DNA of 55,371 nucleotides from contig JAZKIQ010000001.1 in assembly GCA_040384765.1 (NCBI GenBank), forward strand, positions 67,246 to 122,616, in the 5' to 3' direction. Both the position numbers and the translations under genes were made by a program. The stretch comes from Patescibacteria group bacterium. Lineage in GTDB: Bacteria > Patescibacteriota > Minisyncoccia > Phycocordibacterales > JBBUBG01. The notes beneath the pieces are model-generated. The model was not told where the DNA came from and made no database searches. It saw only the letters and a list, made by a program, of their open reading frames with translations. Positions 20,917 through 34,865 of the stretch are shown piece after piece. Within the stretch, counting starts at the first letter, position 1. The number at the start of each line of letters is the position of its first letter.

Positions 20917-21064
20917 TCGGGCATACTACCGAAATAAGGCGCAGTTGACAAGGCCACCTCTAGATAATACCTCCGAGAAGCGGTTTTCTTTTGAAAGACG
21001 GCCAGTATTGGCACGTCCCTTAATGCAGAGTAGGACATCCGCACGTAATTTCCAGGAGGATAGC

Positions 21065-21409
21065 ATGAAACTGGCTGACCCCGGCTTTCTCTTAAGAGTT
21101 GCTACCGAGATACCTCGCGCGGCCTCTGCCGGCTCGGAAGACAAGGACGAACATGGACGGCTTGAGGTGTATGAGGCGTTCCTCTCTTCTCTCGGCCCCG
21201 ATAGCGCTACGAATAGCGGAGAGCTTTCACTGCTCCAGCAAATCTACCGAGCCGTACAAGGAACGCTCCGGTCCAAGTGCCCCGAACTTCCGTTCTATCA
21301 CTGGAGCCGGCCTGTCCTCGAGAAGATCATGAAGCATCTCGAGAAGATCATACAGGCGCCACACGTGCGCGGCATCGAAGGTATGCACTCAGCCGCCCCC
21401 GTCTGGTGA
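21065..21409 (+). CDS. hypothetical protein (solitary gene rich in G/C-ending codons)
   Basis: ATG at 21065 lies 6 nt after AGGAGG. The longer track ORF starting at 20876 overlaps rplY. A terminator follows. Confidence 0.5.
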   Translation: MKLADPGFLLRVATEIPRAASAGSEDKDEHGRLEVYEAFLSSLGPDSATNSGELSLLQQIYRAVQGTLRSKCPELPFYHWSRPVLEKIMKHLEKIIQAPHVRGIEGMHSAAPVW

Positions 21410-21454
21410 CGGGGGCGGCAGCAATCTACGAATCCGCCTTCTGATACCTCATCT

Positions 21455-21492
21455 CGGCGCGACCCACACTGTTCGGGCCGCGCCGTTTTTTT
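21455..21492 (+). terminator. Rho-independent terminator
   Basis: CGGCGCGACC...GGGCCGCGCCG stem followed by a T7 run. Confidence 0.75.
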
Positions 21493-21494
21493 GA

Positions 21495-22580
21495 TTAAAT
21501 CCTAAATTCAATCACATCCCCATCCTTCACGATGTACTCCTTTCCTTCTGTTCGCACTGTCCCCTTTTCGCGAGCAGCCGCATATGAGCCCGCGCCAAGC
21601 AGTGCGCTTTCGTGAACAACCTCTGCTCGAATAAACTTCTCTTTGAAATCTGTATGAATTGCCGTGCCCGCTTCAGGCGCCGTGGAACCTTTCTTCACCG
21701 TCCAAGCGCGCGTCTCATCCTCGCCAGTCGTAAAATACGTCATTAGGCCGAGAAGATCGTAGCTTTTGACGATGAGGTCATTGAGGCCGTCATCTTTTGC
21801 ACCAAGCTCTTCGCGAAACATCCCTTTTTCATCATCTTCCATCCGCGAAAGCTCGTGCTCGATCGCAGCATCCACAAACACATATCCCGCTTTTTGATCT
21901 TTGAAAAAAGCTTCGAGCGCAGGCGATATCTCCCGCTTTCCACCCTTCGTGTTGAGCACATACAAGATAGGCTTCATAGTGAGAAGATGCATGCCATACA
22001 CATATGGCATCTCTTTATCCGTAAACTCCACCGTGCGTGCAAGCTCACCTGCGGCAAGCGCTGGCTCTATCTTTGAAAGTGCCTCCTTTTCTGCGATCGC
22101 CGCTTTGTCGCCACGCTTTACGTCACGCTCCAGATTTGCAAGGCGCTTCGTCACTGTTTCAAGGTCTGCAAGCACAAGCTCAAGATTGATGATGCCAATA
22201 TCGTGCACAGGATCTGGCTTTCCGTGTACATGGATAATATTCGGGTCTTCGAAGATGCGCACCACCTCTGCGATCGCATCTACCTCTCGGATATGCGAAA
22301 GAAACTGGTTTCCAAGTCCTTCACCTGATGCTGCGCCCTGCACAAGGCCTGCGATATCCACAAACTCTACAACCGCAGGGATCGTTTTCGCGGATTTTGA
22401 AAGGTGCGAGAGCTTGCTGAGGCGATCATCGGGCACGGGCACAATACCGACAGACGGATCGATCGTACAAAATGGATAGTTCTCCGCCGGAACTGATTTT
22501 TTGGTCAGCGCATTAAAGAGCGTCGACTTGCCAACGTTGGGAAGACCTACGATACCGATACTCAGTGAACTGCTTGACAT
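21495..22580 (-). CDS. ychF: ribosome-binding ATPase YchF
   Basis: GIVGLPNVGKSTLFNALT, FCTIDP, DIAGLV, a TGS-like C-terminus and a length of 361 aa. Confidence 0.9.
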   Translation of the reverse strand: MSSSSLSIGIVGLPNVGKSTLFNALTKKSVPAENYPFCTIDPSVGIVPVPDDRLSKLSHLSKSAKTIPAVVEFVDIAGLVQGAASGEGLGNQFLSHIREVDAIAEVVRIFEDPNIIHVHGKPDPVHDIGIINLELVLADLETVTKRLANLERDVKRGDKAAIAEKEALSKIEPALAAGELARTVEFTDKEMPYVYGMHLLTMKPILYVLNTKGGKREISPALEAFFKDQKAGYVFVDAAIEHELSRMEDDEKGMFREELGAKDDGLNDLIVKSYDLLGLMTYFTTGEDETRAWTVKKGSTAPEAGTAIHTDFKEKFIRAEVVHESALLGAGSYAAAREKGTVRTEGKEYIVKDGDVIEFRI

Positions 22581-24180
22581 AGGTTTGATTTAGATCGATT
22601 TCGCCATAAACGGATAATTGCTTCTGACTGGAAGAGATGCGCGTATTAGTCCTAGCGATTATGCGCTTTTTCTCCTCTAAATTCAAGGTTCCAAGCGTCT
22701 CCTGTGCTTCTTTCGCAAAACGCTCTATCTCCTCTTCTTCGGGCATCATGAGCTCGCGGCTTTCCTTTTGCACGAGGTACGCCTGCGCCAAGTCTTTCTC
22801 AAGTATCTCTATTTCAACCTTGAGAGGACTAACAAGCTCCTTAAGCCTATCGACGGGGATAATTCCTTCAGAAAAGGCAGTAAGGTATTTTTCCTCCCTT
22901 TTTCTCCTCTTTGTAATCTCCTCCTTGGTATTTTCGATATTCACCACGCCTCTCGTGACCTTACTTTCACGCGATTCCCTTACATGGTTTTCAATCTGGG
23001 CTTGCATGAGTGCTGGGGTACTCATGAAGCGTCTCAGAGCTTCCCACACCACTTCATCTGCAATACGTGCGTTTATACCCTTCTCATGGCAATTTCGCGG
23101 CAAAGGGAAACTATACACACGATCAGTGCATCGATAGTAGAGATGCTTTCCTTTTTGGGGACCTTCCCCCGCTCTACGCCGCCCGCAAATGCACCATATC
23201 GCCCCCGCAAGGAGGTAATCATTCCTTTTACCTCTCCCGACAATCGCAAAGTTGTCTCTCAACTGCTTGCCTGTACGATAGAAGAGGTCCTCGTCGACGA
23301 TCTTATGTGGGATGTTAATAAGGAACCATTCAGCGCGAGGCCTCATGCGCTTACTCGTCTTTTTTATTTTCTTATACTTCTGCTCTTTGAGCGGTTTGGT
23401 GGGAACAACGGCATACGATGCGCCCCAATACGCCCTGCCTATATAGGTCTCATTACGCAAGAGAGTGCTTAAGGTGCTCGTATTCCATACTTTCCTCTTG
23501 TTTTTACGAGGCGTAATACCTAGCTCAAGCAACTTTCTCACGACTCCTCGTAGTGTCATTCGCTCAATTGCCACCCACCGGAAAATCATTCGTACCACCG
23601 CCGCTTCTTTCTCATTTACAATGAAATGCCCTACTACATACTCAGGAGTTCCGCGCTTCCCCACATTCGGAATATAGGTAAATCCGTAAGGAGCTTCGGT
23701 GACCAATACGTGCCCCTTGTCGATCCGACTTAATTTCCCAAGACGAAATCTCTCCGCTATCTTGTCTCGTTCGTAATCTGCAAATAGACCACGCATTCCG
23801 GCGAATAACTTATCATTAAAGTCTTTTATCGGAGGGAGAGTAACAAAAAGCAGCTCAACCCCCGACTCTTTGAGCAGATCACGGACCCCTTCCTGATGAA
23901 AATAACTCCGGGCGATACGATCAGGGTCATACGCAAGTACCGCCTCCCAGATGTGCTTTTTGGCATCTACCCGCAACTCATCAAGCTGAGGACGTTTAAT
24001 ATTATCTCCAGGCCACCCCTCATCAAGATACTCTTTAACGATGATATACCCTTTTTCAGCTGCGAACTTCCGCACCTCAAGAAGCTGTGCCTCGATGGTT
24101 TTTTCCTCTGCTTGGTTAGCGGTTGAAACACGGGCATACACCGCAACCAGCTTACCCTCACCCTTAGGTTCATTACTCAT
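22513..24180 (-). CDS. large serine recombinase (integrase)
   Basis: The 555-aa ORF has catalytic VAVYARVSTANQ, DEGWPGDNIKRPQL and DRIARS. A recombinase domain follows, then a zinc ribbon CICGRRRAGEGPQKGKHLYYRC...C and a C-terminal coiled coil. The last 23 codons overlap the ychF 5' end in another frame. Confidence 0.88.
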   Translation of the reverse strand: MSNEPKGEGKLVAVYARVSTANQAEEKTIEAQLLEVRKFAAEKGYIIVKEYLDEGWPGDNIKRPQLDELRVDAKKHIWEAVLAYDPDRIARSYFHQEGVRDLLKESGVELLFVTLPPIKDFNDKLFAGMRGLFADYERDKIAERFRLGKLSRIDKGHVLVTEAPYGFTYIPNVGKRGTPEYVVGHFIVNEKEAAVVRMIFRWVAIERMTLRGVVRKLLELGITPRKNKRKVWNTSTLSTLLRNETYIGRAYWGASYAVVPTKPLKEQKYKKIKKTSKRMRPRAEWFLINIPHKIVDEDLFYRTGKQLRDNFAIVGRGKRNDYLLAGAIWCICGRRRAGEGPQKGKHLYYRCTDRVYSFPLPRNCHEKGINARIADEVVWEALRRFMSTPALMQAQIENHVRESRESKVTRGVVNIENTKEEITKRRKREEKYLTAFSEGIIPVDRLKELVSPLKVEIEILEKDLAQAYLVQKESRELMMPEEEEIERFAKEAQETLGTLNLEEKKRIIARTNTRISSSQKQLSVYGEIDLNQTYVKQFTEYRYRRSSQRWQVDAL

Positions 24181-24643
24181 GTTTTTTGTTTTTCTTTTTA
24201 GACAAAGGCTTTCGCTTTTGAAGACCTGCCTTTATTTTCTCTGAACGAGTTACGCGTTCATGCTCTGTAAACAGATCCTGGACACCTAAGAGCAGAGGAA
24301 CTCGTGTTCCGATTGCTGTAACCAACTCAACCCCTTTACTCAAGAGCGTGTCCTTCACGTCTTTCCAGTACTCAATAGTCCGTGCGATCCGTTCCGGACC
24401 GCTGACAATCACCTTCTTCCAATTCGCCTTACCTGCATCAGCGAGTAGCTGCTTGAGAGCAGGTCTGTCTATTGCTAAGGCGCTATGTCCTTGATCGATA
24501 TATGTTCTTTCAATCTCATATCCATGCTTCATGCAATACTCTTCGATTTCAGTCAGCTGCTTTTTAATCGCATCTCCCATATCCTGATTGGTCCGAGCGT
24601 ACACTGCTACTGATATGTTGCCCTTCTGTTTTCGTTTCTTCAT
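24173..24643 (-). CDS. resolvase catalytic-domain-only protein lacking the nucleophilic Ser
   Basis: VAVYARTNQD aligns to YARVSTxxQ with the VS missing. IDRPALKQLL, PERIARTIEY and an E-helix-like FTEHERVTRSEKIKAGL are present. There is no HTH or recombinase domain. Confidence 0.6.
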   Translation of the reverse strand: MKKRKQKGNISVAVYARTNQDMGDAIKKQLTEIEEYCMKHGYEIERTYIDQGHSALAIDRPALKQLLADAGKANWKKVIVSGPERIARTIEYWKDVKDTLLSKGVELVTAIGTRVPLLLGVQDLFTEHERVTRSEKIKAGLQKRKPLSKKKNKKHE

Positions 24644-24884
24644 AAATAAAATACTTGTTATGTGTTAATGCCTTCTCAGCTCTCCGTCGCTGAACTTCTT
24701 CAAATAGCACCCTGAACATCTGGTTTACTCTTTCCCATTCGTCTTCCGCCTCTTCGTGCCAATAGGTTATCCATAGCCCTTTGTAGAGATATGAGGTGAA
24801 GGTAACTCTGTCGCACACATCCACCTTATCGATACAAAAGACATGAAGCAGTTCTGGTGGTTTTTCGCTCTCGTTTGGTTCCAT
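24564..24884 (-). CDS. hypothetical protein
   Basis: Start at internal ATG 24884 (MEPNESEKPPELLHVFCIDK...). The 3' end overlaps the next gene by 80 nt, so this could also be a decayed frame. Confidence 0.3.
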   Translation of the reverse strand: MEPNESEKPPELLHVFCIDKVDVCDRVTFTSYLYKGLWITYWHEEAEDEWERVNQMFRVLFEEVQRRRAEKALTHNKYFIYEETKTEGQHISSSVRSDQSGYGRCD

Positions 24885-24898
24885 GTGTTTTGTGGGGC

Positions 24899-25294
24899 CT
24901 AGTGAGGCATACTCATATCGACCACTATTAGATCGATCCCGAGGCACGCCAACCGCTCCGCAATAGCCTGATAGTGATCAGGGTTCTGAGAAAGACGGTC
25001 CTGGGTCGTAATAACCACCGCAGACACGTTGTTGATGGGATTAAAACAGAAGCCAAAAAGACGTTCTAGGTTTTTTCGCGACAAAGATACTCCTCTGGCG
25101 AGATCCTGGAAGACATTCACCACCTCATACCCAGATTCCGCTGAGGCGAGCATGCACCTATTTACCTGATCTATAAGACCGTGCCCGCCACCTTTTCTAA
25201 AAGGCGTGCTGTTACGTGCGTACACAACAGACCGTTTCCGCGCTCTGGCCCGCACCCCATTCCCATAGTTTCCGCCACCATTTCCTAGATTCAT
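24899..25294 (-). CDS. truncated resolvase-domain protein (catalytic Ser present; no E-helix or DNA-binding domain)
   Basis: VVYARNST, DLARGVSLSRKNLERL and VVITTQDRLSQ. The 131-aa ORF ends before the E-helix. Confidence 0.55.
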   Translation of the reverse strand: MNLGNGGGNYGNGVRARARKRSVVYARNSTPFRKGGGHGLIDQVNRCMLASAESGYEVVNVFQDLARGVSLSRKNLERLFGFCFNPINNVSAVVITTQDRLSQNPDHYQAIAERLACLGIDLIVVDMSMPH

Positions 25295-25483
25295 AAGCGT
25301 TTCGATTACCTAACGTTTGTAATAAAGCCGATTTGATATTCATAGTGATTTTGATTTTCATGCGATCTACATACCATTATTACAGAGGCCCAAACTGCTA
25401 GGATCCCTAGTATTTTTAGAGCCCTCTTTCACCCCTCACTCCTACGCTCCCCAAGAGAAAAGCGCAGGATCAGGGGTCAATGA

Positions 25484-26026
25484 CTAGCTCACGAAGCTCT
25501 GAATGGCCGCTGAAGCTTCCTGTTTCGTAAAGACTTCCATTTCCATGCATAGGCGATCACGCTCTCGTTGATCTGCTATATGCGTCTGGATAAGCTCCCG
25601 TAAATACCGCTTTTGTCTGTCTGTAGCCCCTTCTGGACCACGTTCTGCCCCAAGTGGCACTTCTGCAAACCGAGGGTCGAGCAAGCCATTGAGTGATTTC
25701 ATAGTTTTGACTGCGTCACTGACGCTGGCGTTGAAACAAGCTGAGACAGCCCTTTCAATCATCCGATTTAGGCGATTAATCACGACTGAACCTCTCCCTT
25801 GAGAAATGATCACGCCGTCAGGACTTCCTCGTCTGATAGTTGCAATAAAAGCAACCAAGCCGGGAATATGACTTAGCGTGTCAATTGTGGATAAGTCTTC
25901 TTCGACAGTCACCACAAGCTGGTAGCTGCCGACCATCCGCCCGATCTCCTCACGCACTGGATGCCCCTTTGCGCGGATATCAACCTGCAGAGGAGACAGC
26001 ACTTCACCCTCACGAGTGACTTGCAT
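25484..26026 (-). CDS. hypothetical protein
   Basis: The 180-aa ORF overlaps the upstream ORF by 17 nt. The C-terminal helical segment ATDRQKRYLRELI...FTKQEASAAIQSF gives no confident family call. Confidence 0.5.
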   Translation of the reverse strand: MQVTREGEVLSPLQVDIRAKGHPVREEIGRMVGSYQLVVTVEEDLSTIDTLSHIPGLVAFIATIRRGSPDGVIISQGRGSVVINRLNRMIERAVSACFNASVSDAVKTMKSLNGLLDPRFAEVPLGAERGPEGATDRQKRYLRELIQTHIADQRERDRLCMEMEVFTKQEASAAIQSFVS

Positions 26027-26201
26027 GGTGTTCGGAAGCTAGTTTGGTAATGGTGATACGACCTTTTTCGTAGAAAACCTCGATACGGGTATTGATTTCA
26101 AAGCCCGCGCCAGCGAGAAAAGAATTCGAAATCCTGAGCATAGGGATATCTATAGTTCCAGGAGCACGTACGATGACCATACGACGCAAAGAGGAGCTCA
26201 T
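26010..26201 (-). CDS. SymE/AbrB-fold (SpoVT-AbrB-like) small protein
   Basis: LRISNSFLAGAGFEINTRIEVFYEKGRITITKL resembles the SymE/AbrB swapped-hairpin signature. ATG at 26201 overlaps the upstream stop as ATGA. Confidence 0.45.
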   Translation of the reverse strand: MSSSLRRMVIVRAPGTIDIPMLRISNSFLAGAGFEINTRIEVFYEKGRITITKLASEHHASHS

Positions 26202-26506
26202 TGTGGCTTCACTTGGCAACGATGGAATAAGTTCACCGTGCGGGGAATCTTTCGCACCACCTCACCGAGACCGTCACGGACTTCCACGTAGGTAACACTC
26301 CTAAGGGCTTTTTCACCCTTCTTCACGCGGAAGCCATAAGCCATCCACGACAAGAGGGGCATGCAGTCAAACCGGGCATCAAATTGATCTGCCAGCGCTT
26401 GACCCCATCTTTCTGCTATTTGTCGCCTTACGTCCTCCTGCGTCCTTTCTGAACCACGAAAAGGAGAACGCATAGGTACACTCGTAATCTCTTTGATGCT
26501 TTGCAT
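26198..26506 (-). CDS. hypothetical protein, weakly ArdC N-terminal-like
   Basis: WMAYGFRVKKGEKALRSV resembles the W..G..VKKGEK motif of ArdC-type ssDNA-binding domains. This is a weak call. Confidence 0.3.
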   Translation of the reverse strand: MQSIKEITSVPMRSPFRGSERTQEDVRRQIAERWGQALADQFDARFDCMPLLSWMAYGFRVKKGEKALRSVTYVEVRDGLGEVVRKIPRTVNLFHRCQVKPQ

Positions 26507-26844
26507 AGTGTGCAGGCATGACTAATACGCACTACTCGATTGAAGCAGCGCAAAGTACTCGTGTGTGATAAGTGAGTCCTTCACCTATCAAGTTGTGATT
26601 CTTGGGGTATGGGAGGGGTGGTATTTCGACTTGAGGAGGTAGGCGGTGTGAGACTCCTAGGTGTGGCCATTGGAGACGGTTTTTCTACGATGAAACATTT
26701 GCCACCCCCCTAGGTATCTCAAAACGAAAAACGACGGCCCCAATTTTTTTCGCGGCTATTTTTTAGACTTTTGGCCACAAAACAGGAGAAAAGCCGCTAA
26801 ATCCAATAGCTTGACCAGCAAAAAAGGGACTGTAGTACTCTCAA

Positions 26845-26884
26845 GGAGTCAGAATCACAAGTGATTCTGACTCCCCTTTCTTTC
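26845..26884 (+). terminator. strong hairpin with a pyrimidine tail inside the ORF-poor spacer (possible end of a plus-strand non-coding transcript)
   Basis: GGAGTCAGAATCAC-AA-GTGATTCTGACTCC (14 bp, perfect) followed by CCTTTCTTTC. No plus-strand ORF lies upstream. Confidence 0.35.
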
Positions 26885-27633
26885 AAACAAGAAGGTAGAC
26901 ATCCGAGAGAATAATAAAACTCTGGATCGTTGCAGTGATCGACAGGTCATTGCGGGAATACTGGCAGGGTGTGGAGGCTTTTGCTTTCCGCGATTCCAAT
27001 CCGCCTGCTGGAGCCATTAAACTGGAATCCTCTCCGATGCGGCTTCGACAGCACTCGAAGCTCCCGGGAATGAGAACGTGACTGCGGTCGTGTTCTCCTC
27101 CTTGGTTGGAGTGAGCAACTTAAGGGAACCGAACGCACCAGCTGGGCCGACCCCTTCCGTAATACAGATGACTCCACCCGAAACGTAAGTCTCGCAAGAG
27201 CAGAATAGGTCCGAGTGTACACATAACGTAGCTGGAGGGTCTGCCCGGTAGAAATACCAGAAGGGAGTACAGATCTGAGAGAAGTCCGCAGGCAATACGC
27301 CGCAGGAGACATGGTCAAAAAACCTATTAGAACGGCTATTCTCTCCTTCTTGTCCCGGTAAGCTGGTTCTTGAAGGAACCAGCAGGATCGTTACCATTTC
27401 GATCGATTATTTAGAAGAAAAGAATGTTACCGATGATACCCGCAAGAACGGTAACCGCACTTCAGCGAGACTGACAAGCGGGTTACCCAGCAACTGCGGT
27501 TTCCTGAAAATATTCAACCCATTACTCGGTAGCCCCGGTTTCTGTACTATCTGATATCACTTTTCAGCGATTATGAAGAAAATGGGGTGTACTCTGCCCA
27601 AAACCAGAAGGCACCCTCACTCAAGCCACCACC

Positions 27634-27885
27634 ATGAATACACATCACCCAGGAACAGGAGCAAAACCAACTAGATCAGCATCTCCCGTAGCATGCAAAT
27701 CATGTGGAGCACGCACTACACGCTTCACTCGAAGCAAGGGGACAGTAAAGCGGGAAATCAGAAAAAGCACCTACTTCTACCGCTACTACGATCGATGCAG
27801 ATGCGGAAAAATGTGGATGTACGATGAAGCAAAGATGCATCCAGATAACCCTGAATATGAATCGTGGTTCTGCGATTCCCAGTAA
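27634..27885 (+). CDS. zinc-ribbon protein (architecture reminiscent of Ogr/Delta-like factors)
   Basis: CKSCGARTTRFTRSKG...YYDRCRCGKMWMYDE gives CxxC followed about 30 residues later by CxC. Confidence 0.45.
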   Translation: MNTHHPGTGAKPTRSASPVACKSCGARTTRFTRSKGTVKREIRKSTYFYRYYDRCRCGKMWMYDEAKMHPDNPEYESWFCDSQ

Positions 27886-27937
27886 CTTCCGTAGCACTTG
27901 TCGAGGTGTAACCGTGGACTTTGATATCCTTTTACGT

Positions 27938-28522
27938 ATGCCTATAGATTTTGTAGAAAATAGTTTTACTCTCACACCCAAAAGCCTGATGCAGAACATG
28001 CATCAAGGCCGGAAAATTCAATTCGCAACAAACGAGAAGCAGCTAGATATCACCTGCTGGCTTGAAAACGCAAGTGGTCCATCTCTTGTCGCGGTGAGCA
28101 TTAATGGCCATGCGCCTCAGAGTCTCCAGGTTGAGTGGGAGCAGATCACGTATGGCGAAAGAGCTTACTTTCGATGCGACTGCGGAAGCAGGGCAACTAA
28201 GTTGTATCTGCCGCCCAATGGCCACACCTTCAAGTGTCGCAACTGTCATGGTCTCCAGTATCAACTCTCCTCTTTTAATCGTCACTCTGTGGCTGGAGTA
28301 GCTTTGTATCGCATGAACCGGCTTCAGAAGCTCGCGAATAGCCGCGCTGACATCGGAAGAATCTTATACAAAGGCAGCTACACTAAACGCTTTGAGCGGT
28401 TCCTCGGACTGTGTGATCGAGCTGGTCTTGATTCCATTGTTCGAGGTGCAAACGACCTTAAAACACTGATTGAGGGCAACGATTCTAACCAAAGCAGAAT
28501 ATTTAGCGGAAGTCGTAGATAG
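27938..28522 (+). CDS. hypothetical zinc-ribbon protein
   Basis: AYFRCDCGSRATKLYLPPNGHTFKCRNCHGLQYQLSS. ATG at 27938 avoids overlap with the preceding ORF. Confidence 0.5.
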   Translation: MPIDFVENSFTLTPKSLMQNMHQGRKIQFATNEKQLDITCWLENASGPSLVAVSINGHAPQSLQVEWEQITYGERAYFRCDCGSRATKLYLPPNGHTFKCRNCHGLQYQLSSFNRHSVAGVALYRMNRLQKLANSRADIGRILYKGSYTKRFERFLGLCDRAGLDSIVRGANDLKTLIEGNDSNQSRIFSGSRR

Positions 28523-28550
28523 TCCTGATTTCAGAGTAAAGAAACACTAC

Positions 28551-30269
28551 CTAAGCAGGCTCCTCGAATTTCTTGAGGAATGCATTCATGGCATCTGCAA
28601 TTGCCCGTCTTCGATACGCGAGGAAGTTTCGGTAGTTGCTGATCTCCCAAAGACTCCTGTCGATCGGAATAAACTGTGAAGAAAGTGCCTCTTCTGTCTG
28701 CTCAGCAACAATCTTCTCCATATACTCCTTTGGCTCTTTGTTGGTGATGGTCCTGTTTGCCTTGCCTCCAATAAACGCCATGTTGGCAATCTCATTCACC
28801 TCTTTCTTGTCGTAGTCCTTAAGCAGCGACTTCGGGAATATGTGATGATACTGGATCGTGTGGGCATTTCCGGTGTGCTTGTCAGAAAGTCGCAGGCCTG
28901 ACCACCAGTCTTTAACCCCGTCGTGCTTAAAAATGAAATAGAGCAGTGAAAAGAACGGGCTACGAATGCCTCGATTAGCGAGATCATCATAGTCAACGTG
29001 AATCTTCTTTACATGGAGCTGAAGCTGGATGACCAGTTCATCTAACCCCTTGTTTCTAAAGAGAGTTCCAAGATCAGCATCAAGGATCGATTCAGAAGAA
29101 CCCATACTGTAGTGCCCTCGCATGTGAGCAATGAAGAGCCACCGAAGCAGCTTCTTTTCTTCGCTTGGTGTTAGGGACTCCCCTTCTTTCAGCACCCAAT
29201 AGACCGCAATCGGAATAATGAGAAAAGGCGAAGAAAGATAGGTGAGATTGTCGACACCTGCATTCTTACTCACGAAGTTAATGGCGAAGCGCAAACCATC
29301 GCCCGCGAGCTTCCACGATTCTTCAAGCTTTTCTCTGCTTACCTTATTAATAGTTTTGAAACGGCTCTGCTTAGTGGCAAAGATGGTCATAAGGCGCACC
29401 GGAAGCCCTGTTTCGAGAATATAGTCCGCATCATGGCCAAACTCTGCAGACAGCTCTTCTACTTTATCCATGAAGCCCTTCCACTTGGAGGTGATCTGAG
29501 CCATAGCAAGATCAGTACCGCGTAGCTTTATGCCCAGAGAGTTCACCCGCACAAAGATCTCAGTCACCTCTTCGTATGACATGGTGGCCGGAAGAATCTC
29601 CATCGTGTAGGAGTAGTCTCGAATCTTGCGAATCTTTGCGAGCCTATCGGAGTACTTCTGATAACGGGGATCAGCAAGTGAGGTAATACCTGTAGCTTGC
29701 AGTATCTCGCTTGGGTCTTTTTTGAAAATATCTGAAACAGGAACCCACACTGGATCATTCTTGAGAGAGCGGCTCTCTACGACAAACGTACGCTTGCGCA
29801 TCTCTGTCTGAATGTCCCGTTCTGCGTTCTCTTCGTCCTCTACGTCCTCAATATCGGCAGTAAAATCAAGGTCATCTACCTCGGTGATATCGACTGGTGG
29901 CCCATCGGGGTGCTCGAGATTAAAAAGGATGTCGATGGTCTTCTGACGGTTTTTGCTCCGCACATGCACAGGCTCGCCGCTCACGATCGCTGAAAGTGAG
30001 GTTACGCGCTGCTGGCCATCCAAGAGAAGAAGCTTTTGAGATGTGGTCGGCGTTCTCGTAGCATGTACCGCAAGCTCGCGCACCGGCATATCTTCGTCTG
30101 TTTCCCATACCAAAATAGTGCCGGAAGGGTAGCCTCGATACAGAGAATCGAGAAGATCACGAACACGAGTCGCAGGCCACACATAGCGGCGTTGCATTTC
30201 AGGAAGCGTAAGCTCGCCTCGTTGCACCTTATCTACCAACTCACTGACCTTTATGTTTGTTTGAGCCAT
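28551..30269 (-). CDS. GmrSD-family type IV restriction enzyme (DUF262 plus DUF1524/HNH-like)
   Basis: N-terminal ELTLPEMQRRYVW and LLLLDGQQRVTSL (DGQQR motif). C-terminal HTIQYHHIFPKSLL...NEIANMAFIGGKANRTI. ATG at 30269 lies 10 nt after the upstream stop. Confidence 0.8.
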   Translation of the reverse strand: MAQTNIKVSELVDKVQRGELTLPEMQRRYVWPATRVRDLLDSLYRGYPSGTILVWETDEDMPVRELAVHATRTPTTSQKLLLLDGQQRVTSLSAIVSGEPVHVRSKNRQKTIDILFNLEHPDGPPVDITEVDDLDFTADIEDVEDEENAERDIQTEMRKRTFVVESRSLKNDPVWVPVSDIFKKDPSEILQATGITSLADPRYQKYSDRLAKIRKIRDYSYTMEILPATMSYEEVTEIFVRVNSLGIKLRGTDLAMAQITSKWKGFMDKVEELSAEFGHDADYILETGLPVRLMTIFATKQSRFKTINKVSREKLEESWKLAGDGLRFAINFVSKNAGVDNLTYLSSPFLIIPIAVYWVLKEGESLTPSEEKKLLRWLFIAHMRGHYSMGSSESILDADLGTLFRNKGLDELVIQLQLHVKKIHVDYDDLANRGIRSPFFSLLYFIFKHDGVKDWWSGLRLSDKHTGNAHTIQYHHIFPKSLLKDYDKKEVNEIANMAFIGGKANRTITNKEPKEYMEKIVAEQTEEALSSQFIPIDRSLWEISNYRNFLAYRRRAIADAMNAFLKKFEEPA

Positions 30270-30279
30270 ATCTATCTTT

Positions 30280-30834
30280 CTACAAGTAATAATCAGAATC
30301 AGCCACCCGCTCATCTATCATTTCCTTTTGCTCACTTGTGGGCGCATCGGCTTCGCACAAGGTTCTTAAACCCATATCTCCACCGTCATCTGCATCGAGT
30401 CGATATACCCATGCCCAAAATACCTTATACGGCTTATCTATGAAAGTGACATACGCCTGAACTCCGCCATAGTCATTATCGGAAGCATCCAAAACAACGA
30501 ACTTGCCGATATAGCTATCTTTAGCAAAATTATTGAGGCCACACTTCATCGTATCACTCGAAGCCTCAAGAGCACTTTCCTCAAAGCCAACATTGGTCCC
30601 GTCCAAGTATCCATCTATCGCTACACGAATTTGTTTGATGTATGCACTGCTATATATCTCTTCATCTGTGGGGGTTTTCCCGATTCTGGGAGGATTCTCC
30701 GATTCGAGATGCTTTATGGCCTGCATGACCTGATCGATATCTAACGTGCGAGATTCTGGTTTGACCTTGAATTGAAACCAATAAGCAGCAAGTCCCAATA
30801 TGACTACCGCTCCTAGAATAGTGTATTTTTTCAC
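30280..30834 (-). CDS. membrane-anchored hypothetical protein (N-terminal TM, about 160-aa external domain)
   Basis: MKKYTILGAVVILGLAAYWF. A 4-nt overlap links it to the upstream gene. Confidence 0.5.
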   Translation of the reverse strand: MKKYTILGAVVILGLAAYWFQFKVKPESRTLDIDQVMQAIKHLESENPPRIGKTPTDEEIYSSAYIKQIRVAIDGYLDGTNVGFEESALEASSDTMKCGLNNFAKDSYIGKFVVLDASDNDYGGVQAYVTFIDKPYKVFWAWVYRLDADDGGDMGLRTLCEADAPTSEQKEMIDERVADSDYYL

Positions 30835-31211
30835 TCTCTGTTTAACATAAGTAATAATATAATTACTGCGATAAGAGCTATAAATCCCTCGAAAAGAGAT
30901 CTTGAAAACAACACAACCAAGATGACTAGAGTAGCGATACCAAGTAGCACGAAAAGTATCTTGAATAGTTGCTCTCTTAGATGAGAGCGGACAAAAGCAC
31001 TACTTTCATAGTAGATAGATTCCAATAGCACTATAAATATAAAATCGAGAATACCGACTCCCAAGCCAATCCAAATACCGCCATTTACCAAGGCAGCGAG
31101 GAATACGATAAGGCCTACTGTTTTTATGATCGCCAAAGAAGTTGCCTCTTTCTTCGCTCCGCCTTTGGCAGATTCGGATTCTTTTGGCTCAGGTTTTTCT
31201 TTGTGTTCCAT
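30831..31211 (-). CDS. hypothetical integral membrane protein (about 4 TM)
   Basis: A Lys/Glu-rich N-terminus is followed by four hydrophobic segments. Confidence 0.5.
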   Translation of the reverse strand: MEHKEKPEPKESESAKGGAKKEATSLAIIKTVGLIVFLAALVNGGIWIGLGVGILDFIFIVLLESIYYESSAFVRSHLREQLFKILFVLLGIATLVILVVLFSRSLFEGFIALIAVIILLLMLNRE

Positions 31212-31247
31212 ACTAATGCTCTACCTCAGAAATAGAGGAGTTTCTTT

Positions 31248-32114
31248 TCATGATAATTTCGCTGCGCGATAACGACTGCTGCTCGTCTGGTCGTGGTGCG
31301 CCCTGCAGAGCGGAGCGCCATTGTTCACGTCCCATAGAATCATACACTCATATGCCTGCATTACTGTTGTTATCCCATATCGCTGGATAATTGCATAGAA
31401 CGACATGTATCGGTGGTCGATCTCTACATTTTCGCTTGATCCGCAAACGATGCAGTTTCGGCCATACTTTTCAAAAACGCCTTGTCGCCAGGCGGCATAC
31501 TGCGGCATGTGCTCAATCTGTCTGCGTAACTCCACATATGCCGCCTTGCGTCGCTCTTCCGCATCGCGACGCATGTATGCCGCATCGATCTGCTTTTGCC
31601 CTCTCTCGGCTCGCTTCTCCGGAGTGTTCTCTTTAAGGATAAGGTGCACAATCCAGCCACCTACGAGAACCACGAAGAGCGGAAATACGAAAAAGAATGA
31701 GCCCAGCAAAATGACTCCTATGAAAATGACTACGGGCCAACTGTGCGGCTCCTGCTGAGCCTTCGCGGGTGCTTCATAAAAAGATGCGCTTGGCCTCTCT
31801 CGGATACGAGGCGGAGGTGAAAAAGAGTTTATTTTTTCTTGTTCAACCTCCCCAGTCTTCTTTTCTTCCAACGATTTCTGATACTCTTGCGTTCCCTCTT
31901 CCATCATTCGCTCTTCTTTTTCTCGCACCGCAAGAATACCTACATTGAGAGCTGTATCGTTAAATGGATGTTCGTCGGGAATCTCTCCTTCTCCTTCTTC
32001 GGCAAAGACTAGCTGTTGTTTGAGCGTGGGATCATCCTCTGCCCACTCCGCTTCCTTGAGCTCAAGGTAATCGCTTCCAATGTCCTGATCTTCATCGAGG
32101 TCCATCATGGGCAT
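31248..32114 (-). CDS. membrane-tethered HNH endonuclease
   Basis: An acidic N-terminal region is followed by TM segments WPVVIFIGVILLGSFFFVFPLFVVLVGGWIVHLIL. The C-terminal HNH reads CIVCGSSENVEIDHRY...NNGAPLCRAHHDQT. The start is uncertain (ATG 32114 or 32282). Confidence 0.65.
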   Translation of the reverse strand: MPMMDLDEDQDIGSDYLELKEAEWAEDDPTLKQQLVFAEEGEGEIPDEHPFNDTALNVGILAVREKEERMMEEGTQEYQKSLEEKKTGEVEQEKINSFSPPPRIRERPSASFYEAPAKAQQEPHSWPVVIFIGVILLGSFFFVFPLFVVLVGGWIVHLILKENTPEKRAERGQKQIDAAYMRRDAEERRKAAYVELRRQIEHMPQYAAWRQGVFEKYGRNCIVCGSSENVEIDHRYMSFYAIIQRYGITTVMQAYECMILWDVNNGAPLCRAHHDQTSSSRYRAAKLS

Positions 32115-32390
32115 AAAAAAATCCCTAGCTGGTAAAGGCTGGGAGGGTGAAGGTCTAGATAGACATTGAGCCCCGGTCCAGCCGGACCCCTTGCGGGATC
32201 CCATACCCCTTTCGAGATATGACCAACAAAGATGGCTGAACACGGGGCTCAGTATCTTTGTTGGATTTTCAAGCCATGCCACCGCAAAAGCGATGGTTTA
32301 GGCTCTACTCCTTTCGGAGTTCATATTTAGTTGTATGACGATAATAGCACTTCTTTGGGAAGTGCTAAAGACCTCTTAGTGAGAGGAGCG

Positions 32391-34865
32391 CTAATTACTT
32401 GCGGGCTTCTTTTTTAGGTTTATGTTCACAGACCCACAGGCACACCTAAGTGAATCGAGTGTTTTTGGCGCAGTAAACGCAAGATAATACAAGCCCTTGC
32501 AACCCTCTTGATCGCAGCAAAAACTTTGTACCAAAACATGAAAAGCTTCTACAACGTGAGTAAAATCCGCAACGTGAAAGTTTGCCCATTCGTTGTAATG
32601 GATCGCCGGATTTATGAGCCACTGATCAGCGTTAGTTGCACTGAATGCTTCGGTGATTGCTTTTTCTTTCTCTTCGATTTTTTTAACATCCTCCGCGTGC
32701 CCCCAGGATTCTGCTGCCTTTTTCCCATCCGCAAGAATCTTGCGCAAACTCGCCACTGAAGGTGACAGAATGTCTCCGAGTTCATAGCGACCATCTCCTC
32801 TGAATTCAACACGAGCGCGAAGATGGTGAGCTATGTCTTTGAAAAGATACTCTGAATAGTATCTCAATATACCCGCAGCGCTTCGAACATCGTCTTTCTC
32901 AAGAGCAGAAGCTATTTCAGTCCACACAGCACGGTTGCTCCATTCTGTAGGTCCATGATCGGGAGTCCAATTACTAAACCGAGTAGAGCCTGTATCTCCA
33001 ATCAAGCCGACGCTTCCCATGTGCTTCAACCAGACTTCATCATGAGTCGTCAGTACAAATTGCGTATCAGGAAACCGTTCCTTGAGGAGCTTGCAAACTT
33101 CACGACGATGACCAGCATCAACAGACATAAGTACGTCATCGAGTACGGCAAAAGTGAAATTTTCGCCTTGAAGTCGTTGCATAAGGGCTAGATACAAACA
33201 AAGACCCATACCATCCTGATGCCCTTCGCTGTGATATGCCCCTGGAGGAAAATGTCCACGACCATAGAAATCAACGTCGAAACCGACCTTGCCTGTTGAA
33301 GGAATTAATTTTGCACTAAACTCACTCTCATCATCACTATTGATTGATCGGTAAAATTCGCTGAACTCTTTTTCTACCTGTTTATAGACGCCAGAAAGCA
33401 CTTTATCCGCCTCTTCGGCATATATGTCATAGACACTTTGAGCTAGATCGGCATGCTCGCCAGACTTTTTTAGTCTTCGCATGGCTTCACGATATGTTTC
33501 TAGACGATCGTGACAGAGAATGAGATAGTCTCTTGCCGCTTCCTGCTGACTAGGTTCTGGAATCGCAACCAGAGCCGCATCGATTAGACGGAGAACCTCA
33601 TTAAAGTCTCCAGGTATCTTACCTACCTCTCCTAGCGCGAGCAGTGTTTCGGAAAGAGGAAGAAAGGCCTTAATTTTTCTTGCCTTCAAATCAAGAGCTG
33701 CCCTATATGTTGAAAGATGCACAACCTGCTCCGGAGTAATAATTTTTGCGTGCTTTTCCAGTGCAAAGAGAGCTGTACGCATGCGATCGAATAGATCCGT
33801 AATCGGCTCAAGTCTCCTCTCGAGAGCACTTCGTAATTTACCCGTCTCTTCAAACACCTTGAGCTTACCCTCCACATTTGCACGCAAAGTTGGAATGTCC
33901 CACGGAGTATCGCAGACGGGACAAAGTGGTTCAACAATAAGAGGCAAGGTCGCCCGCAAAAATTTCTCCCTCGATACACTATCAAGAAGAGCTGGGTCTG
34001 CGTTAAGTGCAGTAAGTTGAACATGCAAATCGGCACATTCACCTGTGATACCCGGATCTATAAGTCTGCCCAAGAGGTCTTTCGTCGTTTTTAAATCGGC
34101 CAAAGCCTCGACCTTATTTATTTTTGGTATAGCTGCGCCTTTCGCACCAGTTTTGACTCCATCATGCAGAATCGTTGTATTCGTAAGAGTGTCGATCGGA
34201 GCTAGGCCAAGAATCACTCGACGAATATTAACGGCCTCAAGAAGCTTCTCGGGCTTCAGTTCTGGAATCTCAAGTCCCTTTGCCAACGACTCCCGCGCCT
34301 CGTCTGCAGCTTTTTTAGCGCCTATTTTCTCTTTATTACAAGTATTGCTAATCGTTTTCAGGGTACTGCGAAGATCACCCAGTTGATCCAGCCGCAAAAG
34401 AGCCTGGATCTCTTCTGAGCGTTTGCCTGGTTGAGCAAGTACGTAGGCAATCAGCTCACGCCGAGAGAGCACAAACTCCGGGCGGTCTTCGAGCAGGTCA
34501 AGAACTCCCAGAACATCCGGAGTATTGGGAGTAACTAAGGGATTATTGGGATTAGCAACACTTCTTTCAAGACGAACCCTCTTGTTGCCTAGAGATGGTA
34601 TACGTAATTCGAGAATCACTTTTGCTTTCTCCGGATAGTCTCGACTATCCACATGGGGAGCATGCTTCCGAAGCGAAATGCCACCTGTTCCCTCACCTCC
34701 AAGACGAGATATATTGCCGGTCAAACCAAATTCAAGGGCATCAACAACACCACTTTTTCCAGTGCCGTTAGGACCCGAAATTGCAAAGTTCTCACCTTTG
34801 AAGTTTAGGGGGAGATTACGAATACCTCGGAATTCTTCTATCGTGATCTTGTCGACCAGAATCAT
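32391..34865 (-). CDS. Rad50/SMC-like ABC ATPase with a coiled-coil CxxC zinc hook; RloC/PrrC-like candidate
   Basis: Walker A GPNGTGKSG, signature-like HSEGHQDGMGL, Walker B FAVLDDVLMSVD and H-loop VLTTHDE. Roughly 400 aa between Walker A (aa 31-39) and the signature motif (aa ~545) has a heptad-like helical character by eye (no coiled-coil prediction run), with LCPVCDTPW near its middle (nt 33912-33923). The C-terminal domain has LRYYSEY (R-x3-E) and a terminal CCDQEGC...CAC cluster. Confidence 0.6.
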   Translation of the reverse strand: MILVDKITIEEFRGIRNLPLNFKGENFAISGPNGTGKSGVVDALEFGLTGNISRLGGEGTGGISLRKHAPHVDSRDYPEKAKVILELRIPSLGNKRVRLERSVANPNNPLVTPNTPDVLGVLDLLEDRPEFVLSRRELIAYVLAQPGKRSEEIQALLRLDQLGDLRSTLKTISNTCNKEKIGAKKAADEARESLAKGLEIPELKPEKLLEAVNIRRVILGLAPIDTLTNTTILHDGVKTGAKGAAIPKINKVEALADLKTTKDLLGRLIDPGITGECADLHVQLTALNADPALLDSVSREKFLRATLPLIVEPLCPVCDTPWDIPTLRANVEGKLKVFEETGKLRSALERRLEPITDLFDRMRTALFALEKHAKIITPEQVVHLSTYRAALDLKARKIKAFLPLSETLLALGEVGKIPGDFNEVLRLIDAALVAIPEPSQQEAARDYLILCHDRLETYREAMRRLKKSGEHADLAQSVYDIYAEEADKVLSGVYKQVEKEFSEFYRSINSDDESEFSAKLIPSTGKVGFDVDFYGRGHFPPGAYHSEGHQDGMGLCLYLALMQRLQGENFTFAVLDDVLMSVDAGHRREVCKLLKERFPDTQFVLTTHDEVWLKHMGSVGLIGDTGSTRFSNWTPDHGPTEWSNRAVWTEIASALEKDDVRSAAGILRYYSEYLFKDIAHHLRARVEFRGDGRYELGDILSPSVASLRKILADGKKAAESWGHAEDVKKIEEKEKAITEAFSATNADQWLINPAIHYNEWANFHVADFTHVVEAFHVLVQSFCCDQEGCKGLYYLAFTAPKTLDSLRCACGSVNINLKKKPASN

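What the first reader, a model, noticed from the sequence alone, without database searches (positions are those of the whole stretch)
26507..27633. 1.1-kb ORF-poor spacer between divergent halves of the recombinase element: candidate large non-coding RNA or replication/recombination region
This 1127-nt stretch lies between the minus-strand operon ending at 26506 and the plus-strand zinc-ribbon gene at 27634.
- It has no plus-strand ORF of 60 aa or more. It has only two mutually overlapping minus-strand ORFs in different frames, whose translations (R/S-rich, C-rich) look non-proteinaceous.
- The rest of the window is densely coded, so a gap this size stands out.
- It contains a perfect 14-bp hairpin with a pyrimidine tail (26845-26884) that would terminate a plus-strand transcript with no ORF.
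- Further stems lie downstream: GATTCCA/TGGAATC around 26992-27030, GCTTCGA/TCGAAGC 27042-27061, GCTGGTTC/GAACCAGC 27361-27383, and GGTAACCGC/GCGGGTTACC 27450-27487.

Possible roles are a large structured RNA, an origin or attP-like region of the element, or a decayed gene.
Basis: partly seen in the sequence, partly recalled or inferred. Interest (0 to 1): 0.6.

Follow-up and report, generated by a model that had tools for sequence, protein, structure and literature searches.

The report
Conserved ORF-free module, candidate large RNA
Inside a mobile element of a tiny-genome bacterium lies a roughly 510-base stretch with no gene for a protein that stays almost unchanged in related elements while the neighbouring genes drift, so it is probably a new structured RNA, though this is not yet proven.

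Summary
The gap is real: 26507-27633 has no credible ORF, under table 11 or with recoded stops. No frame matches Pfam, PHROGs or NCBIfam. It matches no Rfam family (3, 4).

It has three parts:
- 26507-26844 is the divergent promoter region of a conserved gene module (p180-p69-p102 leftward, p174 rightward) found in 7 other genomes of the same order (52-54).
- 26845-26884 is a perfect 14-bp hairpin with a pyrimidine tail.
- 26882-27390 is a 509-nt core. It sits, with an 83-aa zinc-ribbon gene, in a slot that is empty in three related loci and holds protein cargo in four (53, 69).

In contigs of other metagenomes the core is 96-98.5% identical, while flanking coding pieces of the same run are 84-91% (27). 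Frame-breaking indels hit both minus-strand ORFs. A two-part 17-bp helix joins the core's ends; no shuffle of 100 equalled it. The plus strand folds better than the minus (z -2.9 against -1.0).

Best reading, about 50%: a new structured non-coding RNA on the plus strand. There is no covariation and no expression data, because no relative's sequence could be fetched.

Rivals: a recently spread mobile module, a DNA site, a decayed gene.

The parts
26198..26506 (-). p102, first gene of the leftward operon (backbone). Weak likeness to the ArdC N-terminal domain in a relative.
   Evidence: ORF. tblastn homologues in 7 of the 10 loci fetched. The L030 homologue hits Pfam ArdcN at E 0.002, below the curated cut-off.
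26507..26844 (.). Backbone divergent intergenic region. It holds a G-rich box (about 26608-26630) and a promoter-like site facing right (-35-like at 26812-26817, -10-like at 26834-26840).
   Evidence: Alignment A2 with the p102-upstream regions of 7 related loci. The G-run plus TTGTT box and a TTGnAA-N17-TAnACT-like site recur there. The promoter reading is inference; the consensus scan did not list it.
26845..26884 (+). Perfect 14-bp inverted repeat around a central AA, then a pyrimidine tail. Terminator-like on the plus strand. Alternatives: 5' stem-loop of the transcript, operator, or recombinase site.
   Evidence: It is unique in the window and the genome. No similar palindrome in 7 related loci. 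It lies outside the block that aligns in run X3.
26882..27390 (+). Conserved ORF-free core, candidate structured non-coding RNA of about 510 nt.
   Evidence: Identity in other runs: X2 pieces 26946-27149 (3 other letters in 204) and 27161-27390 (7 in 230); X3 piece 26882-27082 (4 in 201). Alignment stops sharply at 26882 and 27390. No Rfam match. Fold z -2.86 on plus, -1.01 on minus.
26887..26913 (+). 5' strand of the closing helix: two 9-nt segments with a 9-nt bulge between them.
   Evidence: Pairs I18 and I19. The outer segment has probability 0.98 in the predicted ensemble. 0 of 100 shuffles of the 1127-nt region reach this two-segment helix.
27337..27353 (+). 3' strand of the closing helix (17 contiguous nt).
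27356..27390 (+). 3' terminal stem-loop: a 4-bp outer stem and a 9-bp inner stem with a UGAA loop. The conserved block ends at its base.
   Evidence: probabilities 0.93 and 0.98. The X2 alignment ends at 27390.
27391..27479 (.). Variable spacer. It is not alignable at 80% or more in run X2.
   Evidence: The X2 contig that covers 27161-27390 runs on for 41 letters that do not fit. The next X2 piece starts at 27480.
27634..27885 (+). zn83, an 83-aa basic zinc-ribbon protein. It is cargo together with the core.
   Evidence: 6 representatives at E up to 0.001 among 1.84 billion, the best 65% identical and 78 aa long; alignment A3. No indel inside it in X2 or X4. Absent from the 10 related loci fetched and from L010.
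27938..28522 (+). p174-family gene (backbone), a zinc-ribbon protein of unknown function.
   Evidence: 75 homologues, 42-64% identical apart from the window's own 100% entry P0001. Four invariant Cys. The profile match begins at 27950; ATG at 27938.

Best explanation
The core 26882-27390 is the gene of a new structured non-coding RNA of about 0.5 kb. It is carried as accessory cargo, together with a small basic zinc-ribbon protein (zn83), in the variable slot of a small mobile gene module of a reduced-genome (candidate-phyla-radiation-like) bacterium.

Inferred mechanism:
1. The rightward backbone promoter (about 26812-26840) transcribes the plus strand through the hairpin into the core.
2. 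The core's ends pair in a 17-bp helix that closes a multi-branched domain, and the RNA ends in a stem-loop at 27356-27390.
3. The RNA then acts either in trans, most likely as a ribonucleoprotein with zn83, or as a long leader that controls zn83 and p174.

Shown: absence of coding, higher conservation than the neighbours, the closing helix, and the cargo position.

Inferred: transcription, strand, the partnership with zn83, and any function.
For: No coding:
- No credible ORF in any frame or under recoded stops.
- No protein family in 11 stop-to-stop frames and ORFs.
- No homologue of the longest frame among 5.8 billion proteins, at near or shorter lengths.
- In run X2 there are indels at 26972, 27308, 27310 and 27316. 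Between 27308 and 27316 the net shift is +1, which breaks both minus-strand ORFs.

Conservation:
- In X2 the two core pieces differ at 10 of 434 positions (2.3%). The six other island pieces of the same run differ at 183 of 1558 (11.7%).
- In X3 the core piece differs at 4 of 201 positions.
- The bin depths of X2 are fully explained by these single contigs, so there is only one layer of sequence over the core.

Boundaries:
- Alignments stop at 26882 (X3) and 27390 (X2). That is 5 nt before the closing helix and at the base of the 3' stem-loop.

Structure:
- Two-segment long-range helix, 0 of 100 shuffles as good.
- Core z -2.86 on plus (1 of 100 shuffles) against -1.01 on minus (17 of 100).
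- 26885-27633: z -4.56 on plus against -1.73 on minus, with 20 shuffles each.
- An 11-bp stem with two G-U pairs and a GAAA-capped stem are read only on the plus strand.

Context:
- In the 4 of 4 cargo-bearing relatives the cargo genes are co-oriented with p174; L038 carries one extra gene in the opposite direction.
- The A-over-T skew of the core matches that of the plus-strand genes to its right.

A distant zn83 homologue in G572 (E 2e-6) is also preceded by 541 ORF-poor nt that fold with z -4.39.
Against: - No relative's sequence could be fetched, so there is no covariation test at all.
- No RNA run holds the stretch, so expression is untested.
- Thermodynamic support is modest. In 150-nt windows the interior of the core (27050-27250) has z near 0 on both strands. 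The strong local signals come from the 26845 hairpin and the 3' stem-loop.
- Of the four indels in X2, two fall in predicted unpaired positions and two in predicted paired ones, so they do not support the predicted fold.
- The X2 and X3 core contigs do not bridge to recognisable flanks. The core could therefore sit in another context or organism there, and its high identity could reflect recent spread and not constraint.
- X4 holds one coding piece at 98.4% (26154-26282) beside an overlapping one at 85%. This shows that mixed relatives occur in these runs.
- The promoter-like site has a poor -10 and was not found by the consensus scan.
- A terminator-like hairpin lies between it and the core.
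- The G572 stretch shows no sequence likeness to the core.
Confidence: 0.5

Rival explanations
1. The core is a recently spread selfish or passenger DNA module, for example a miniature non-autonomous element whose inverted ends are the 26887-26913 and 27337-27353 repeats, or a cassette exchanged between elements. Its near-identity between samples would reflect recent transfer, not selection on an RNA.
For: Inverted repeats of 17-18 nt lie near both ends of an ORF-free segment of about 470 nt. Alignment boundaries are sharp, and the contigs in X2 and X3 run on into unlike sequence. X3 shows the core but no other island part at 80% or more. The slot is a hotspot for variable cargo in relatives.
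Against: Only one copy in the 822-kb genome. It was not found in:
- 60 relatives;
- 400 genomes of the phylum (only short matches, E 0.001-0.007 per genome);
- GenBank phages and PLSDB plasmids;
- IMG/VR, JGI metagenome contigs and GTDB species genomes.

The conserved block runs 37 nt beyond the right repeat, and no direct duplication flanks the repeats in the sequence. One arm is interrupted by a 9-nt bulge. Folding favours one strand.
Confidence: 0.2
2. The region acts as DNA. It would be a replication or transfer origin of the element, or a recombination or operator site, with the perfect palindrome around a central dinucleotide as a binding or crossover site for one of the three serine-recombinase-family proteins or for a repressor.
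For: It lies between divergent operons of a mobile module, next to a large serine recombinase and two proteins that consist only of the resolvase N-terminal domain. The palindrome has 14-bp perfect arms with a 2-nt centre and overlaps the expected transcript start of the promoter-like site. The architecture of serine-recombinase sites is recalled, not tested.
Against: - No direct-repeat family with more than 2 copies and no tandem repeats.
- No AT-rich dip; GC is 0.47-0.53 across the region.
- No second copy or half-site partner of the palindrome in the window beyond chance (4 matches against 5.1 expected).
- No such palindrome in 7 related loci.
- The backbone module exists without the core in three loci with gaps of about 270-390 bp, so the core is not a backbone origin or att site.
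- 509 bp of uniform 96-98% identity is not the patchy pattern of a protein-binding region.
Confidence: 0.12
3. The core is not an independent RNA. It is the long structured 5' leader of the zn83-p174 operon, and the upstream hairpin acts as an attenuator. This would be a cis-regulatory element.
For: It has the same orientation and lies directly upstream of zn83. No canonical terminator follows the core. zn83 and p174 are only about 52 nt apart. A terminator-like hairpin stands right behind the promoter-like site.
Against: The 89 nt between the core and the better-aligned zn83 upstream part are not conserved in X2, and the core is far better conserved than zn83 itself. The block has its own closed fold and a terminal stem-loop. 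This rival overlaps the best explanation, because both need a plus-strand structured RNA.
Confidence: 0.13
4. The region is a decayed protein gene or random spacer with no function.
For: Two overlapping ORFs of 123 and 126 aa lie on the minus strand. The island's genes in general have atypical codon use, so weak coding scores are not decisive.
Against: No family or homologue for any frame. Identity is higher than in the flanking genes, the opposite of what decay predicts. Indels break both ORFs in X2.
Confidence: 0.05

Closest known systems
Large orphan structured RNAs of bacteria and prophages (GOLLD, ROOL, OLE; Rfam families)
   Same: Several hundred nucleotides, ORF-free, ends brought together by long-range pairing, and carried on mobile or phage-like DNA with unknown function. 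The prophage association of GOLLD and ROOL is recalled. I saw only the search listing and abstract start of PMC12286853.
   Different: No match to any of the 4227 Rfam models, even at E up to 10. It is known from one genome and three low-coverage metagenome runs only. No covariation-supported structure exists.
RNA-based immunity and leader RNAs of satellite and temperate phages (P4 CI RNA, P1/P7 C4 RNA, HK022 put RNA); recalled, not tested
   Same: A non-coding RNA encoded directly downstream of an early promoter, in front of early genes, near terminator-like hairpins.
   Different: Those RNAs are about 70-80 nt and act through short complementary target sites. Here the block is 509 nt, and I made no search for complementary target sites in the element. 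The phage nature of the backbone is only a lead: atlas clusters are labelled Uroviricota, but there is no match in GenBank phages.
Guide or partner RNAs of mobile-element proteins (IS110 bridge RNA, omega RNAs of TnpB and IscB, retron and DRT non-coding RNAs)
   Same: A non-coding RNA gene next to a small element-borne protein gene, inside a recombinase-bearing element.
   Different: No DEDD recombinase, TnpB, IscB or reverse transcriptase is nearby. The recombinases here are serine recombinases, for which the one three-term search (26 papers; 15 listed by title and abstract start) surfaced no RNA-guided form. The partner candidate is an 83-aa zinc ribbon of no known family.
Miniature inverted-repeat transposable elements
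   Same: ORF-free, about 0.5 kb, with inverted repeats near both ends.
   Different: Single copy, no target duplication seen, and the conserved block exceeds the repeats by 37 nt on the right.

Membership tests
Any Rfam 15 family (including GOLLD, ROOL, OLE, HEARO, group I and II introns, RNase P, tmRNA, 6S) | A covariance-model match at the family's gathering score | tested here: not met
   (whole window at gathering scores): only LOOT RNA and three tRNAs, none in the region. (26000-28200, E up to 10): only four chance matches, all on the 26845 hairpin.
Intrinsic terminator | GC-containing stem-loop followed directly by a U-rich run on the transcribed strand | tested here: met
   13-pair stem with 6 GC pairs and a 4-nt loop, followed by a pyrimidine tail, on the plus strand. 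The number of such sites in the region does not exceed shuffles (2.3). Function is not shown.
Serine-recombinase crossover or att site | Inverted half-sites around a central dinucleotide, plus a partner site with which it recombines | tested here: inconclusive
   Half-sites and a central AA are present. No partner site was found in the window or in the genome, and none in related loci.
Iteron-type replication origin | An array of direct repeats next to an AT-rich stretch | tested here: not met
   no direct-repeat family of more than 2 copies and no tandem repeats. GC 0.47-0.53 throughout.
Miniature inverted-repeat transposable element | Terminal inverted repeats, target-site duplication, many copies | tested here: not met
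   Inverted repeats are present. There is only a single copy in the genome, no duplication beside the repeats, and no copy in 860 other genomes.
Type III toxin-antitoxin (ToxIN-like) RNA antitoxin | Tandem array of short repeats upstream of the toxin gene | tested here: not met
   no tandem repeats in 26300-28000.
Template repeat of a diversity-generating retroelement | A second, diverged copy in a target gene and a reverse transcriptase nearby | tested here: not met
   no second copy in the genome; no reverse transcriptase among the neighbours scanned.
Protein-coding gene or pseudogene | An open frame with homologues or a family match, kept open in relatives | tested here: not met
   no match; indels in X2 break both long ORFs.

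The most novel reading that the evidence does not exclude
The core is the first member of a new class of large structured RNA that works as a ribonucleoprotein with a tiny zinc-ribbon protein. This would be a two-part accessory (defence, exclusion or immunity) module that moves between phage-like elements of candidate-phyla-radiation bacteria. The RNA, not the protein, would be the conserved and possibly catalytic part.
Probability: 0.15. Interest if true: 0.8.

Novelty: new member of a known kind. Interest (0 to 1): 0.55.

Why it matters
Large structured RNAs without known function are rare in bacteria, and each new class has opened questions about RNA catalysis and assembly. Reduced-genome bacteria of the candidate phyla radiation keep little non-coding DNA, so a 0.5-kb ORF-free block held at 96-98% identity while the adjacent genes drift to 84-91% suggests a function. 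Its place in a cargo slot that elsewhere holds NYN, PIN and WYL proteins, beside a tiny zinc-ribbon gene, makes an RNA-protein accessory system directly testable. If it is only a recently spread module, the finding is of minor interest.

Tried and rejected
**Searches for relatives of the spacer DNA that found nothing useful**
- Own genome and 60 relatives.
- 400 genomes of the phylum: only 22-66-nt matches at E 0.001-0.007 per genome, taken as chance.
- Phages and plasmids by blastn.
- IMG/VR by a typed pattern.

**Searches anchored on neighbouring proteins**
- zn83 in genome contigs and metagenome contigs: none.
- The 232-aa ORF and p180 in viral contigs: none.
- Alignments A1 and A3 in viral contigs: none.

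**Longest minus-strand frame of the core used as a stand-in protein to catch near-identical DNA**
- Metagenome contigs and genome contigs: none.
- Viral contigs: one 33%-identity hit, L010. It shows no DNA likeness to the gap (best blastn E 0.39, nothing by nhmmer) and was rejected.
- The same frame in the protein collection, at near and shorter lengths: none.

**RNA evidence**
- No RNA holder was listed by the look-up of sequencing runs. Parts of the stretch without contig cover in X2-X4 are not counted as evidence.

**zn83**
- The structure model is poor (pLDDT 64), and the Foldseek search of the PDB gave nothing at E up to 0.001.
- PDB sequence searches with A3 and A1 gave nothing below E 0.16.
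- The atlas gave only unnamed clusters for zn83.

**G572 locus**
- No likeness to the core, no Rfam family, and no relative among 100 genomes.
- The L042 hit lies inside a 399-aa ORF and was dropped.

**Other rejected ideas**
- Recoding (tables 4 and TAG=Q): no long frame opens.
- Group I or group II intron: considered because of size and a U...G boundary pattern. Rejected for lack of any Rfam hit and of exons that join into a frame.
- The 16-nt direct repeat 22562/35875 as an att pair: chance-level by my estimate, not pursued.
- My crude list of other gaps in the window proved to be covered by ORFs.

No supplements of papers were consulted.
Full report
**1. The observation**

The stretch 26507-27633 lies between the start of a minus-strand gene (p102, 26198-26506) and an 83-aa plus-strand ORF (zn83, 27634-27885).
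- The longest plus-strand ORF from a start codon is 48 aa.
- The only long ORFs are two overlapping minus-strand ones of 123 and 126 aa.
- Reading TGA as Trp or TAG as Gln opens no long frame.
- A dicodon model trained on 301 long genes of the same genome scores the two ORFs at -0.31 and -0.13 per codon, below the lowest training gene (-0.08). The neighbouring island genes also score low (-0.20 to 0.28), so this test is weak on its own.
- No frame or ORF of the region hits Pfam, PHROGs or NCBIfam.
- The longest frame has no homologue among 5.8 billion proteins, at near or shorter lengths.

The genome is 822,710 bases in 12 contigs and densely coded. A crude ORF cover leaves only 3 gaps over 1 kb.

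**2. No known RNA family**

Rfam at gathering scores finds only LOOT RNA (32184-32304, minus strand) and three tRNAs in the window. At E up to 10 the region gives only chance matches on the hairpin.

**3. The region is composite**

The 232-aa ORF to the right is really a member of a family of 170-195-aa zinc-ribbon proteins (p174).
- It has 75 homologues, 42-64% identical apart from the window's own 100% entry P0001, and four invariant Cys.
- The likely start is at 27938.
- The family occurs in 9 of 401 genomes sampled from the order and in 7 of 401 from the phylum, own genome included.

I fetched 10 loci from 8 of those genomes. By tblastn:
- p102 lies beside p174 in 7 of 10 loci.
- p180 is present in 5 of 10.
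- The arrangement is always divergent.
- zn83, the large serine recombinase and the spacer DNA are in none.

The distance from the p102 start to the p174 start varies.
- In L030, L031 and L033 it is about 270-390 bp, with no cargo.
- In L032, L034, L037 and L038 it is 1.4-3.1 kb and filled with protein genes. These include NYN plus WYL proteins, a PIN protein, an S49 peptidase and secreted or membrane proteins. They are co-oriented with p174, apart from one gene in L038.

An alignment of the p102-upstream regions shows a shared G-rich box and, just before p174 or the cargo, a promoter-like TTGnAA-N17-TAnACT site. The window's counterparts lie near 26608-26630 and 26812-26840.

So 26507-26844 is backbone promoter DNA. 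Everything from 26845 to about 27937 (hairpin, core, zn83) is cargo in a variable slot.

**4. The core is better conserved than the genes around it**

The stretch is held by four public runs. X1 is probably the source sample. X2, X3 and X4 come from two other studies. I laid their contigs on 21000-33000 at 80% likeness or more.

| Run | Piece | Differences | Identity |
|---|---|---|---|
| X2 | core, 26946-27149 | 3 of 204 | 98.5% |
| X2 | core, 27161-27390 | 7 of 230, plus 3 indels | 97.0% |
| X2 | six other island pieces | 183 of 1558 | 84-91% |
| X3 | core, 26882-27082 | 4 of 201 | 98.0% |

- The X2 bin depth over the core equals what these two contigs give, so no second layer is hidden.
- Alignments end sharply at 26882 (the X3 contig has 32 more letters that do not fit) and at 27390 (the X2 contig has 41 more).
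- The X2 indels between 27308 and 27316 give a net shift of +1 inside the 126-aa ORF and at the start of the 123-aa ORF. The indel at 26972 shifts the end of the 123-aa ORF.
- zn83 carries no indel in X2 or X4 and is about 90% identical.

Caveats:
- The contigs are short and at depth 2-4.
- They do not bridge from the core to recognisable flanks.
- X4 holds one coding piece at 98.4% that overlaps another at 85%, so mixtures of close and distant relatives occur.
- The runs were found through 31-mers of 26200-27900, which favours high-identity pieces there. The comparison within X2 does not depend on that.

**5. Structure**

Two perfect 9-bp segments pair 26887-26895 with 27345-27353 and 26905-26913 with 27337-27345. 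Together they make 17 pairs with a 9-nt bulge.
- No dinucleotide shuffle of the 1127-nt region reaches this (0 of 100; best 16 against 18 as counted).
- The helix starts 5 nt inside the left conservation boundary.
- The right boundary coincides with the base of a stem-loop at 27356-27390.

Fold z-scores:

| Stretch | Plus strand | Minus strand |
|---|---|---|
| Core, 26882-27390 | -2.86 (1 of 100 shuffles as good) | -1.01 (17 of 100) |
| 26885-27633 (20 shuffles) | -4.56 | -1.73 |

Against this:
- 150-nt windows inside the core have z near 0.
- Two of the four X2 indels fall in predicted paired positions.

The thermodynamic case is moderate and the predicted fold is unverified.

**6. Strand**

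The plus strand is favoured, at roughly 2 to 1, by:
- the fold asymmetry;
- G-U pairs and a GAAA-capped stem that exist only on that strand;
- an A-over-T skew like that of the plus-strand genes to the right;
- the co-orientation of cargo with p174 in the relatives.

Against it:
- The terminator-like hairpin precedes the core on the plus strand.
- On the minus strand the hairpin would follow the core, though without a U-run.

**7. What it most likely is**

The evidence fits a gene for a structured RNA of about 510 nt, carried as cargo with zn83.

zn83 is a real but rare small protein: 6 representatives among 1.84 billion, the best 65% identical. It belongs to no known family.

A distant homologue in genome G572 is also preceded by 541 ORF-poor nt that fold with z -4.39. 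That stretch shows no sequence likeness to the core and has no relatives of its own. This is a hint of a protein-RNA pairing, no more.

I commit to a plus-strand structured RNA (0.5) and, within that, to a partnership with zn83 as the most likely mode.

The rivals are:
- a recently spread mobile module (0.2);
- a cis-acting leader (0.13);
- a DNA site (0.12);
- decay (0.05).

**8. Comparison and novelty**

The core belongs to no Rfam family. In kind it resembles the orphan large RNAs of mobile and phage-like DNA. Unlike bridge, omega or retron RNAs, it has no known RNA-using protein beside it.

The one three-term search surfaced no RNA-guided serine recombinase: 26 papers held all three terms, and I saw 15 by title and abstract start. 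This is a listing, not a proof of absence.

The phage nature of the backbone rests only on the taxon labels of atlas clusters. GenBank phages hold no match.

**9. Verdict**

The RNA reading is partly supported for a 509-nt core, on conservation and a closing helix. Interest is moderate.

Noticed in passing
window 32184-32304 (-): Full-length match to Rfam LOOT RNA (RF03000): 92.8 bits against a gathering score of 46.4. It overlaps the 5' end of a 344-aa ORF with an HNH-like C-terminus (31248-32282).
   Followed up: no
window 22513-25294 (-): Three serine-recombinase-family genes lie in a row: a 555-aa large serine recombinase and two short proteins (156 and 131 aa) that hold only the resolvase N-terminal domain. 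The 3' end of the large one overlaps the annotated start of the ychF-like GTPase gene by 68 nt.
   Followed up: partly
window 26198-28522; loci L030-L038: A small conserved module occurs sporadically in the order and in three copies in genome G701: p180, an AbrB/SymE-like p69 and an ArdC-N-like p102 leftward, and the zinc-ribbon protein p174 rightward. The gap between p102 and p174 is a cargo hotspot that holds NYN+WYL, PIN, S49 peptidase and other genes.
   Followed up: partly
window about 26608-26708; L030, L031, L033, L037, L038 upstream of p102: A run of 6-8 G followed by TTGTT, with a C-run further on, recurs upstream of p102 in most related loci. It could be an operator, a 5' UTR stem or another site of the backbone.
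   Followed up: no
L041 (G572:C3) 846-1386 and 1717-2316: A 109-aa double zinc-ribbon relative of zn83 is flanked on both sides by 540-600 nt without credible ORFs. The upstream stretch folds with z -4.39. The downstream one holds a short tandem CCTTTTCG-like array.
   Followed up: partly
window 28551-30314 (-): A GmrSD-type (DUF262/DUF1524) type IV restriction gene lies directly beside the module. Relatives in run X2 are 85-88% identical.
   Followed up: no
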